DNA from: the human T2T-CHM13v2.0 reference genome, Homo sapiens
Length of the DNA: 64,000 bases
Strand: one strand, 5' to 3'
Assembly (NCBI RefSeq): GCF_009914755.1
Contig: NC_060927.1
The notes beneath the pieces are model-generated. The model saw only the letters and a list, made by a program, of their open reading frames with translations, did no database searches and was not told where the DNA came from. The position numbers and the translations under genes were made by a program. This document shows, piece after piece, positions 2,490 to 5,660 of the stretch (position 1 is its first letter; each line of letters opens with the position of its first letter).

Positions 2490-3375
2490 TTAAAATTTTT
2501 TAAGTTCAGGGCTACATGTGCAGGTTTGTTATATAGGTAAACTTATGTCACAGAGGTTTGCTGTACAGTTTATTTTGTCACCCAGGCACTAAGCCTAGCA
2601 CCCATTAGTTATCTTTTCTGATCCTCTCCTCCCTACCACCCACAACCCTCAGGTAGGCCCCAATGTTTGTTGTTCCCTTCTGTTTGTCCATGTGTTCTCA
2701 TTATTTAGCTCCCACTTATTAATGAGAACATGCAGTATTTGGTTTTCTGTTCCTGTGTTAGTTTGCTAAGGATAATGAATGACCTCCAGCTCCATCCGTG
2801 TTCCTACAGAGGACATGCTCTCATTCTTTTTTTATGGCCGTGTAGTATTCCATGGTGTATATGTACCACATTTTCTTATTTTATTTATTTATTTTTTGAG
2901 ACACAGTCTCACTCTTGCCCAGGTTGGAGTGCACTGTCATGATCTAGGCTCACTGCGACCTTCGGCTCCGGGGTTCAAGTGAGCAATTCTCATGCCTCAG
3001 CTACCCAAGTAGCTGGGATTACAGGCATGCACCACTGGGCCCAGCCTAAAGAAAAGACCACATTTTCTTTATCCAGTCTGCCATTGATGGACATTTAGGT
3101 TGATTCATGTCTTTACTGTTGTGAATAGTGCTGCAGTGAACATACACATTCATGTGTCTTCATGATAGAACATTTATATTCCTTTGGAGATATACCCAGT
3201 AATGGCATTGCTGGGTCTAATGGTAGTTCTGTTTTTAGGTCTTTGAGGAATCGCCATACTTCTTTCCACAATGGTTGAACTAATTTATACTCCCATCAAC
3301 AGCATCTAAGTGTTCCTTTTTCTCTGAAACCTCACCACAGCATCCCTTATTTTTTGACTTTTTAATAGCCATTCT
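2490..3375 (-). mobile_element. L1PA-type 3' end, first part of a split element
   Basis: Reverse-complement L1 3'UTR/ORF2 end; interrupted by an Alu monomer at ~2876-3045; continues at 5203. Confidence 0.8.
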
Positions 3376-3651
3376 GGCCAGGCACGGTGGCTCATGCCTG
3401 TAATCCCAGCACTTTGGGAGGCTGAGGCAGTCGGATCACCTGAGGTCAGGAGTTCAAGACCAGCCTGGCCAACATGGTAAAACCCCGTCTCTACTAAAAA
3501 TACAGAAATTAGGCGGGTGTGGTGGCAGACGCCTGTAATCCCAGCTACTCGGAAGGCTGAAGCAGGAGAATCGCTTGTACCTGGGAGGTGGAGGTTGCAG
3601 TGAGCTGAGACCACACCATTGCACTCCAGCCTGGGCAACAAGAGCAAAACT
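3376..3651 (+). mobile_element. AluS lacking poly(A), fused to L1 3' end
   Basis: ggccaggcacggtggctc...aagagcaaaact runs directly into L1 sequence. Confidence 0.9.
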
Positions 3652-4086
3652 AAATAGCAAAGGCTTGGAACCAACCCAAATGCCCATCAGCGATAGAGTG
3701 GATAAAGAAAATGTAGCCCATATAACCATGGAATACTATGCAGCCATAAAAAGGATGAGTTCATGTCCCTTGCAGGGACATGGATGAAGCTGGAAACCAT
3801 CATTCTCAGCAAACTAACACAGGAACAGAAAACCAAACACTGCATGTTCTCACTCTTAAGTGGGAGCTAAACAATGAGAACACATGGACACAGGGAGCGG
3901 AACATCATGCACCAGGGCCTGTCAGGGGGTGGGGGTTTAGGGGAGGGATAGCACTGGGAGAAATAGCTAATGTAGATGACGAGTTGATGGGTGCAGCAAA
4001 CCACCATAGCATGTGTATACCTATGTAACAAACCTGCATGTTCTGCACATGTATCCTAGAACTTAAATAAATAGATAAATGAAAAA
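3652..4086 (+). mobile_element. L1PA 3' end
   Basis: ttggaaccaacccaaatgccc...gtatcctagaacttaaa followed by an A-rich tail remnant. Confidence 0.9.
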
Positions 4087-4096
4087 GACTGAGAAT

Positions 4097-4392
4097 GGCC
4101 GGGCATGGTGGCTCACACCTGTAATCCCAGCACTTTGGGAGGCCGAGGCAGGCGGATCACCTAAGGTCAGGAGTTTGAGACTAGCCTGACCAACATGGAG
4201 AAACCCCGTCTATACTAAAAATACAAAAAAATTAGCTGGGCATGGTGGCAGGCGCCTGTATTCCCAGCTACGTGGGAGGCTGAGGCAGGAGAATCACTTG
4301 AACCTGGGAGACAGAGGTTGCGGTGAGCCGAGATCGCGCCACTGCACTCCAGCCTGGGCACCAAGAGCGAAACTCCATCTCAAAACAAAAAA
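4097..4392 (+). mobile_element. AluS with TSD aaaaagactgagaat
   Basis: Full Alu; TSD at 4082-4096 and 4393-4407. Confidence 0.95.
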
Positions 4393-4929
4393 AAAAAGAC
4401 TGAGAATATCGTTACTATATAGAGATGTTCATTGGGGAGAAAGTCAATAGAGTCTTGAATATTCTCGTGATGTGCAGAATAATTGTGTAGAGATTATTTT
4501 AAATCATAAATACATCTTATATCTTAATATCTTAAATATGTTTTGTTTTCCATATATACTTAAGATATTTCTATGAAAATGTCTTATCCTAATATTTGCC
4601 AGCAAGAGTCTTGTGTAACCTTTTGAAAGTTGAGTAATAACTGTAATGCTGCTTTGCTTATTTTTCATAAAACAGTGATTTTCTTTAATATATCTGAAAA
4701 TGCATTTTTCATTTATTTTTTCTTATTATTATATGTATATATCAAGTGTGGCATTTGAGAGTCTGTTGATAAAATTTACAAAAGTAGAATTACAATTTTA
4801 TGTTAATGATGAAAGAATGACTTATAATATTCACCTGATTGTATCTCTTATTTTGTGTGCTTTTGTTAAACATATGTCGATTTATTTTGCCAACATGATT
4901 ATATAGACAGAGAACTCCTTTTCTTTCAG

Positions 4930-5089
4930 GTTGGTTCATGTGATCCTGGTTAATGGAACATAAGTGAGATTTTATGGGTGACAGGGAGAGAGATCAGGCT
5001 TGACTTGAGAGCACGTGGGAAAAGAAGGGGGCTATCTCTTCGCAAAGATTTAAGTATCTTATAAGAACTGTTTGCCAGTGCAATTATGA
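4930..5089 (+). other. FAM162A: Candidate alternative FAM162A exon ending in ATG-A, in frame with exon 2
   Basis: Acceptor ctccttttctttcag| at 4929, donor |gtaagt at 5090; ATG at 5086-5088 with A at -3. Confidence 0.6.
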
Positions 5090-5202
5090 GTAAGTGTATT
5101 TGTGCCTAATTTTTATTTTTTAAAAGCTCAGGTGATTATAATTTCATCTGTGAAATGTTGGAAGTATAGTCTGATTAAAATAGTATATATCTAAAAAAAA
5201 AA

Positions 5203-5660
5203 AATAGCCATTCTGGCTGGTTGTGAGATGGTATTGCATTGTGGTTTTGATGTGCATTTCTCTAGTGATCAGTGATGTTACTTTTTCTTCTGTATGCCTG
5301 TTGGCTGCACGTATGTCTTCTTTTGAAAAGTGTCTGCTCACGTCCTTTGCCCACCTTTTAATGGGCTGGTGTTTTTTTTCTTGATAATTTGTTTAAGTTC
5401 CTTATAGAGCTGGATATAGACCTTTGTCAGATGCATAGTTTGCAAAAATTTTGTCTCATTCTATAAGTTGTCTGTTTGTTGATAGTTTCTTTTGCTGTGC
5501 AGAACCTGTTTAGTTTCTGCACAGTAAAAGTTAAATTTATTAGATCCCATTTGTCCATTTTTGCTTTTGTTGCAGTTGCTTTTGGCATCTTCATCATGAA
5601 ATCTTTGCCCATTCCTATGTCCAGAATGGTATTGCCTAGGTTGTCTTCCAGGGTTTTTAT
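5203..5660 (-). mobile_element. L1PA-type fragment, continuation of 2490-3375
   Basis: Resumes the L1 sequence aatagccattctggctggttgtgagatgg; minus-strand ORF2-like peptide [15 protein letters not shown]. Confidence 0.85.

What the first reader, a model, noticed from the sequence alone, without database searches (positions are those of the whole stretch)
3364..5217. Alu-L1 chimeric retroinsertion with ~800-bp 3' transduction, bounded by one TSD
Seen: an older minus-strand L1 is split, and aatagccattct(ggc) occurs at 3364-3378 and again at 5203-5217. Between them lie an Alu starting at its first base but lacking a tail, an L1PA 3' end with tail remnant, a later nested Alu with its own TSD, ~790 bp of non-repeat-looking DNA (4408-5192), ATTAAA at 5175-5180 and a poly(A) at 5193-5204. 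The site is tt/aata, resembling an L1 endonuclease target. Known: L1 3' transduction and template-switch chimeras give exactly these hallmarks. Inference: one event copied unique DNA from another locus into FAM162A intron 1.
Basis: partly seen in the sequence, partly recalled or inferred. Interest (0 to 1): 0.75.

Follow-up and report, generated by a model that had tools for sequence, protein, structure and literature searches.

The report
Alu–L1 retrocopy carrying chr12 DNA
A single ancient L1-driven insertion in intron 1 of FAM162A joined an Alu, the tail end of an L1 and about 800 bases copied from chromosome 12; it is a neat but ordinary example of two known L1 side-effects occurring together.

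Summary
AATAGCCATTCTGGC occurs exactly twice in the window, at 3364-3378 and 5203-5217. Unsplit copies of the same old minus-strand L1 carry that stretch once, so it is a true target-site duplication. Between the copies lie:
- an Alu body from its first base (3376-3651), lacking its last 7 bases and its A tail;
- an L1 3' end (3653-4067) and an A-rich remnant (4068-4082);
- about 800 bases (4083-4096 plus 4408-5189), split by a later Alu that has its own 15-base duplication;
- ATTAAA (5174-5179) and A12.

The non-repeat stretch has one other copy in this genome, on chr12 at 15,646,132-15,646,941 (minus strand), with 6.3% substitutions. That copy continues past the ATTAAA without a poly(A) and lacks the nested Alu, so it is the source.

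No L1 lies upstream of the chr12 source, which therefore looks like an empty site. A 3' transduction from a progenitor L1 that is no longer there is the likeliest reading, but it is not proven.

Alu/L1 chimeras (452 catalogued in 2026) and 3' transduction are both known. This locus is missing from that catalogue, probably because its 3' duplication lies about 1.1 kb beyond the L1 end. Primate orthologues could not be examined.

The parts
2685..3363 (-). Left part of the older L1 (minus strand) that was the target. It carries an unrelated partial Alu at about 2878-3056.
   Evidence: matches to the plus-strand L1 at window 51.1-51.9 kb in reverse orientation; matches to L1 copies L006-L010.
3364..3378 (+). 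5' copy of the target-site duplication. The core aatagccattct is 3364-3375. The ggc at 3376-3378 is shared with the Alu start (microhomology).
3376..3651 (+). Alu body from its first base to position 278. It lacks the last 7 body bases and the A tail.
   Evidence: alignment to the nested Alu, 3376-3651 = 4097-4374. Metazoa_SRP matches at 3377-3493 and 3513-3651.
3652..3652 (+). Single A at the Alu/L1 junction that belongs to neither part.
3653..4067 (+). 3' terminal ~415 bases of a primate L1. The subfamily was not determined here.
   Evidence: homology starts at 3653; 39 other genomic copies at 89-92% identity, most alignments ending at query position 413, which is window 4067.
4068..4082 (+). 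A-rich stretch taaatagataaatga: the L1 end and tail remnant.
   Evidence: It lies between the end of L1 homology and the start of chr12 homology.
4083..4096 (+). First 14 bases of the chr12-derived DNA (aaaagactgagaat).
   Evidence: homology to chr12 covers the nested Alu's duplication.
4097..4392 (+). Later nested Alu with an A tail. Its 15-base duplication AAAAAGACTGAGAAT is at 4082-4096 and 4393-4407. This Alu is absent from chr12.
   Evidence: (family D3).
4408..5192 (+). Rest of the chr12-derived DNA. Homology runs to 5189, and tct at 5190-5192 is unassigned.
   Evidence: G000:C12:15646132-15646941, minus strand; 742 of 792 ungapped columns identical.
5174..5179 (+). ATTAAA polyadenylation signal, also present in the chr12 source.
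5193..5204 (+). Poly(A) of 12 bases. It is absent at chr12, and its last two A's overlap the duplication.
5203..5217 (+). 3' copy of the target-site duplication.
5218..5560 (-). Right part of the older L1 (minus strand).
   Evidence: 40 of 40 scored matches were L1 copies, including the query's own locus..

Best explanation
A single L1-mediated, target-primed reverse transcription event inserted a composite cDNA into an older minus-strand L1 in FAM162A intron 1.

Proposed course of events:
1. The L1 endonuclease nicked the target at TT/AATA.
2. Reverse transcription began on the poly(A) of an RNA that ended 10-13 bases after an ATTAAA signal on chr12.
3. It copied about 800 bases of chr12 DNA, then the A-rich end and the last ~415 bases of an L1.
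4. It then continued onto an Alu RNA, entering 7 bases before the Alu's A tail and running to the Alu's first base. This step was a template switch, or the RNAs were ligated beforehand.
5. The 5' end was joined to the target over a GGC microhomology, giving a 12-15-base duplication.

The L1-plus-chr12 RNA is best read as a read-through transcript (3' transduction) of an L1 that once sat just upstream of AAAAGACTG at chr12:15.647 Mb and is not present in this genome.

A second Alu later inserted 14 bases into the copied DNA.

Shown: the duplication, the order and limits of the parts, the chr12 source and its direction, and the later Alu.
Inferred: the progenitor L1, the template switch, and the age of roughly 15-33 million years.
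For: The duplication is exact and non-random, and it restores one continuous L1.

chr12 is the only other copy in the genome (2 candidates, both scored). It has ATTAAA but no poly(A), and it runs on into a G/T-rich stretch. chr12 is therefore the template and chr3 is the retrocopy.

chr12 carries the nested Alu's target sequence once, so that Alu came later.

chr12 homology starts at a run of four A's preceded by unrelated sequence. That is what the 3' duplication of a source L1 would look like.

The ages of the parts agree:
- the copied DNA differs from its source by 6.3% (K2P 0.0665, about 3.3% per lineage);
- the L1 part is 91-92% identical to its best genomic matches;
- the 5' Alu is no more diverged than the demonstrably younger nested Alu. 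It differs from the consensus at 14 of 245 non-CpG sites against 15 of 245, and both reach 90-91% in their best genomic matches.

The Alu lacks any A tail and abuts the L1 with one unassigned base.

Law & Burns 2026 (PMC13174262; sections 10, 12, 19, 40 and 42 and parts of Table S4 read) describe 452 Alu/L1 chimeras bounded by one duplication. Most have a sense-oriented Alu starting at position 1, and they include Alu 1-278 fused to L1PA5 and to L1PA6.
Against: No L1 lies at or within 10 kb upstream of the chr12 source, so the progenitor is postulated and not seen.

No sibling insertion shares the transduced stretch.

AC/AAAA at the presumed chr12 insertion point is only a partial endonuclease motif.

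The A-rich stretch between the L1 and the chr12 DNA is short, at 15 bases.

Most catalogued Alu/L1 chimeras keep part of the Alu A tail. String counts in Table S4 for Alu ends were: 1-29x 82, 1-30x 83 and 1-31x 42, against 1-26x 9, 1-27x 8 and 1-28x 27.

Co-arrival of the Alu with the rest was not tested in other species.
Confidence: 0.7

Rival explanations
1. Tripartite template-switch chimera without a source L1. Reverse transcription started on an independent polyadenylated chr12 RNA, for example an intronic read-out ending at the ATTAAA. It then jumped to the poly(A) end of an L1 RNA, copied about 415 bases, and jumped again to an Alu RNA.
For: chr12 shows no L1 at the junction or within 10 kb upstream. 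The chr12 stretch ends at a usable ATTAAA signal followed by a G/T-rich stretch. The junction at four A's could be microhomology with a poly(A) tail. Double template jumps are reported for LINE chimeras (PMC2104539, listing and abstract only).
Against: It needs two rare jumps instead of one. By recall, 3' transduction is common among L1 insertions, and lost progenitors are expected because most active L1 copies never became fixed. There is no evidence of a transcript start at AAAAGACTG. The L1 part ends with its complete 3' end and an A-rich remnant, exactly as a read-through transcript would.
Confidence: 0.12
2. Two sequential events. An Alu inserted first and made the aatagccattct duplication. 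The truncated L1 with its transduced DNA then landed later in the Alu's A tail, in the same orientation, with a small target deletion that removed the last 7 Alu bases and the left part of the tail.
For: By recall, A tails are favoured L1 endonuclease targets, and a later insertion there would leave the Alu's duplication as the apparent outer boundary. Divergence cannot separate events a few million years apart.
Against: There are no A's between the Alu body and the L1, and the Alu body itself is cut. This reading therefore needs a non-canonical deletion and leaves the L1 insertion without any duplication of its own. The 5' Alu is not measurably older than the nested Alu, which post-dates the insertion.
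Confidence: 0.1
3. DNA-level duplication or chance resemblance: the chr12-like stretch arrived by segmental duplication or repair synthesis and not through RNA.
For: None specific. The only point in its favour is that the progenitor L1 is missing.
Against: The chr3 copy ends 10-13 bases after ATTAAA in a poly(A) that chr12 lacks. It is bounded by a 12-15-base duplication at a TT/AATA site and is joined to an L1 3' end.
Confidence: 0.02

Closest known systems
Alu/LINE-1 chimeric insertions (Law & Burns, Cell Genomics 2026, PMC13174262; earlier chimeric retrogenes of Buzdin and colleagues, recalled)
   Same: A sense-oriented Alu starting at its first base is fused directly to a 5'-truncated L1 3' end. 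One duplication and a poly(A) bound the whole, and the target is endonuclease-like. Tail-less Alu ends at position 278 also occur in their Table S4.
   Different: Here the 3' duplication lies about 1,135 bases beyond the L1 end, because of the transduced DNA and a nested Alu. Their duplication search reaches only 75 bases past the L1 3' junction. No entry at chr3:122.1, 122.3 or 122.4 Mb appears in the supplements. The hg38 position of the locus is recalled, not computed. Contemporaneous arrival, which is their criterion, was not tested here.
L1 3' transduction (Moran 1999; Goodier 2000; Pickeral 2000, all recalled; the abstract of PMC9311842 in the listing describes the process)
   Same: An L1 3' end and tail remnant are followed by unique DNA that ends at a downstream polyadenylation signal and a new poly(A), all inside one duplication. 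The unique DNA maps to one other locus.
   Different: The mapped locus carries no L1, so the progenitor is inferred to have been lost. The L1 part is very short (415 bases) and is capped by an Alu.
Tripartite chimeric retropseudogenes by double template jumps (PMC2104539, abstract only)
   Same: Three unrelated transcripts are joined head to tail inside one LINE-made insertion.
   Different: That case is fungal and has no transduction alternative. Here two of the three parts are more simply explained as one read-through RNA.

Membership tests
L1-mediated (TPRT) retro-insertion | A target-site duplication of 7-20 bases flanks the whole insert | tested here: met
   A 12-15-base exact repeat is present. 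It is a single copy in 4 of 5 unsplit L1 relatives.
L1-mediated (TPRT) retro-insertion | A 3' poly(A) preceded by a polyadenylation signal and absent from the source | tested here: met
   ATTAAA is at 5174-5179 and A12 at 5193-5204. chr12 has the signal but no poly(A).
L1-mediated (TPRT) retro-insertion | An endonuclease-type target (TT/AAAA-like) | tested here: met
   The target reads TT/AATA at 3362-3367, which matches 5 of the 6 motif positions. The motif itself is recalled and also appears in the legend read.
L1 3' transduction | L1 3' end, then non-L1 DNA, then poly(A), all within one duplication | tested here: met
L1 3' transduction | The transduced DNA maps to a unique locus elsewhere, colinear and unspliced | tested here: met
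   There is one other copy, at G000:C12:15646132-15646941 on the minus strand.
L1 3' transduction | A progenitor L1 directly upstream of the source stretch. This is corroborating rather than defining, because unfixed progenitors are often gone. | tested here: not met
   The sequence upstream of the chr12 junction is not L1, and no L1 3' end matches within 10 kb. This lowers the claim and keeps the tripartite rival open.
Alu/L1 chimeric insertion | An Alu directly 5' of a truncated L1 in the same orientation, with no duplication of its own, and one outer duplication | tested here: met
   The Alu is 3376-3651, one base follows, and the L1 starts at 3653. There is no A tail and no inner repeat.
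Alu/L1 chimeric insertion | Both parts arrive together in cross-species alignments | not testable with these tools
   No primate genomes or multi-species alignments are held.
Alu/L1 chimeric insertion | The Alu and L1 are of concurrently active ages | tested here: inconclusive
   Divergences are similar, but subfamilies were not assigned and the consensus rested on only 13 Alus.

The most novel reading that the evidence does not exclude
The insert is a true tripartite chimera made by two successive template jumps: from a chr12 intronic polyadenylated RNA, to an L1 RNA, to an Alu RNA. No source L1 ever sat at chr12. If so, human L1 reverse transcriptase can string three unrelated RNAs together, and some 'orphan' 3' transductions that map to L1-empty loci would be misclassified.
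Probability: 0.12. Interest if true: 0.35.

Novelty: new member of a known kind. Interest (0 to 1): 0.2.

Why it matters
Both mechanisms involved are textbook, so the locus itself teaches little that is new.

Its practical value is methodological. A chimera that also carries a 3' transduction has its 3' duplication far from the L1 end. It therefore escapes catalogues that look for the duplication within 75 bases of the L1 3' junction, so such compound events are probably undercounted.

The insertion also places about 800 bases from chr12, with their polyadenylation signal, in sense orientation inside FAM162A intron 1. No effect on that gene is shown.

Tried and rejected
- The plus-strand L1 further along the window (about 50.9-51.7 kb) was tried as a reference for continuity of the split L1. 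It lacks the very bases in question: the alignments stop at 51304 and restart at 51297. Five genomic L1 copies were used instead.
- An L1 was sought near the chr12 source with four probes: the L1 3' piece, both old-L1 flanks and the Alu. The 10 kb upstream gave only Alu matches. The 10 kb downstream gave weak old-L1 fragments about 2.5-3 kb away.
- Rfam over 3300-5300 at E up to 0.01 found only Alu-derived matches (7SL, and mir-1268 and mir-3135 look-alikes). Nothing matched in 4408-5192.
- Relative dating of the two Alus against a majority consensus used only 13 Alus from the window and loci, so it is a weak test. Best-match identities in the genome cover only the 40 scored out of thousands of candidates.
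- Literature: a search for FAM162A with transduction and LINE-1 gave 0 papers. A search for compound Alu/LINE-1 chimeras with transduction gave nothing beyond PMC13174262.
- A sliding identity profile of the copied DNA showed no specially conserved part: 89-98% per 100 bases.

Full report
**Observation.** I read window 2700-5700 directly. The repeat finder reports AATAGCCATTCTGGC at 3364-3378 and 5203-5217 at 100% identity (family D6). A pattern search allowing up to one mismatch finds just these two sites in 64 kb. The expectation is 0.01, and none of 100 dinucleotide-preserving shuffles gave two matches.

**Is the repeat a target-site duplication?** To test this I needed an unsplit copy of the flanking old L1.
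- The plus-strand L1 later in the window lacks the relevant bases.
- I therefore searched the assembly with the right flank. All 40 scored matches were L1 copies, one of them the query's own locus.
- I aligned both flanks to five of the returned loci.
- In 4 of 5 (L006, L007, L009, L010) the left flank ends at subject position 1513 or its equivalent. The right flank begins 13 bases before that, on one continuous L1 that reads ...aatagccattctg... once.
- The fifth locus, L008, is interrupted at the same spot by an unrelated Alu.

The repeat is therefore a genuine duplication of a single L1 target, cut at TT/AATA.

**Anatomy between the two copies.**
- **5' Alu.** It aligns to the nested Alu from 3376 (= 4097, the first base after the nested Alu's own duplication) to 3651 (= 4374, position 278). 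After that the nested Alu continues with ccatctc and an A tail, while the 5' Alu continues with L1 sequence. Rfam's 7SL model matches both Alu monomers on the plus strand, starting at 3377.
- **Shared GGC.** The GGC at 3376-3378 is shared between the target and the Alu start. The duplication is therefore 12-15 bases, with a 3-base microhomology at the 5' joint.
- **L1 piece.** L1 homology begins at 3653, leaving one unassigned A at 3652. Against 39 other genomic L1 copies, most alignments end at query position 413, which is window 4067, at 89-92% identity.
- **A-rich remnant.** 4068-4082 reads taaatagataaatga.
- **Nested Alu.** It occupies 4097-4392 and is flanked by AAAAAGACTGAGAAT at 4082-4096 and 4393-4407 (family D3).
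- **3' end.** Twelve A's are at 5193-5204.

**The source.** I searched the window's own assembly with 4408-5192. This gave two candidates, both scored: the query itself and G000:C12:15646132-15646941 on the minus strand, at 89% identity counting gaps. Reading that locus and aligning it shows four things.
- Homology starts at AAAAGACTG. It thus includes the 14 bases at 4083-4096 that lie before the nested Alu, and chr12 has that Alu's target sequence once. The nested Alu is therefore a later event, and the copied stretch is about 799 bases.
- Homology stops a few bases after ATTAAA. There chr12 runs on into agaaatggttttggttc with no poly(A).
- The two copies differ at 50 of 792 ungapped columns (36 transitions and 14 transversions) with 13 gap events. 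This gives p = 0.063 and K2P = 0.0665.
- Identity is even along the stretch, at 89-98% per 100 bases.

Direction is thus clear: chr12 is the template and chr3 is the retrocopy. With assumed rates of 1.0 to 2.2e-9 per site per year, the split is 15-33 million years old.

**No progenitor L1 at chr12.** The sequence just upstream of the chr12 junction is not L1. Four probes found no L1 3' end in the 10 kb upstream.

A Pfam PTB search places two PTB-coding exons at chr12:15,546,615-15,547,068 on the minus strand. From recall I take this gene to be EPS8. The source lies about 100 kb 5' of those exons on the same strand. It is thus probably intronic or in the 5' region of that gene, but no annotation was available to confirm this.

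- An L1 once sat just upstream of AAAAGACTG on chr12.
- Its weak terminator was bypassed, and the transcript ended at the next signal, the ATTAAA.
- During integration at chr3, the enzyme copied the 800 bases, the A-rich L1 end and 415 bases of L1.
- It then continued on an Alu RNA to that RNA's first base.

Law & Burns 2026 (PMC13174262; I read sections 10, 12, 19, 40 and 42 and searched Tables S2-S5) describe 452 such Alu/L1 chimeras. Most have the Alu in sense and starting at position 1. They attribute the chimeras to template switching or to RNA ligation before integration. Their table includes Alu 1-278 fused to L1PA6 and to L1PA5. Most of their Alus, however, keep part of the tail. String counts for Alu ends were: 1-29x 82, 1-30x 83 and 1-31x 42, against 1-26x 9, 1-27x 8 and 1-28x 27. 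These are raw counts and include a few non-Alu cells.

**Rivals.**
- **(a) Tripartite chimera.** The enzyme makes two jumps, and chr12 contributes an independent polyadenylated RNA. This fits the missing progenitor but needs two rare events, and nothing marks AAAAGACTG as a transcript start.
- **(b) Sequential insertion.** The Alu inserts first, then the L1 lands in its tail. The absence of any A's at the junction and the loss of 7 Alu body bases would require an atypical deletion. The 5' Alu is also no more diverged than the nested Alu, which is necessarily younger than the insertion: 14 of 245 against 15 of 245 non-CpG differences from a 13-Alu consensus. Both reach 90-91% in their best genomic matches. 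These dating tests are weak.
- **(c) DNA-level copy.** The poly(A), the signal and the duplication exclude this.

**Comparison with what is known, and novelty.** Both components are established. The locus does not appear in the Law & Burns supplements. Number prefixes 12239, 12240, 12211 and 12212 and the gene name were searched in all six files, and prefixes 1223, 1224 and 1221 in Table S4. No hit fell on chr3. These prefixes rest on my recalled hg38 and hg19 positions of FAM162A and KPNA1.

Their method explains the omission. The 3' duplication is sought within 75 bases of the L1 3' junction, whereas here it lies about 1,135 bases away. No paper in the library links FAM162A with L1 transduction (0 papers).

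I therefore rate this as a new, uncatalogued member of known kinds. It is correct as read and of low general interest.

**Limits.** No primate orthologue could be examined, so the empty site at chr3, co-arrival of the parts and any L1-filled allele at chr12 remain untested. L1 and Alu subfamilies were not assigned. Gene names at chr12 and the hg38 coordinates are recalled.

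Noticed in passing
window 2865-3069: The same old L1 carries another, unrelated insertion. It is a 5'-truncated minus-strand Alu (about 2878-3056, with its T-rich tail at the left end), flanked by a 13-base duplication ACCACATTTTCTT at 2865-2877 and 3057-3069 (family D8).
   Followed up: no
L008 (G000:C14:48244850-48248165), about 1335-1501: An independent copy of the same L1 family has a minus-strand Alu inserted within a few bases of the equivalent position, just before aatagccattctg. 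This T-run/AATA spot of the L1 has therefore been hit more than once.
   Followed up: no
window 4915-5192, and the chr12 source in L002: Both copies keep a pyrimidine tract and cag/g (window about 4917-4931), some 245 bases before the ATTAAA. Together these look like a terminal-exon module, now in sense orientation in FAM162A intron 1. Identity there is no higher than elsewhere. RefSeq lists one FAM162A transcript that does not use it (hub table). It is probably a chance motif.
   Followed up: partly
window 51297-51304: The plus-strand L1 at about 49.1-52.0 kb lacks roughly 11 bases that other L1 copies have at the position corresponding to the target site here (one search compared).
   Followed up: no
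G000:C12:15546615-15547068: Two PTB-domain exons on the minus strand lie about 100 kb downstream (in transcript sense) of the chr12 source. The gene is taken to be EPS8 from recall only.
   Followed up: partly
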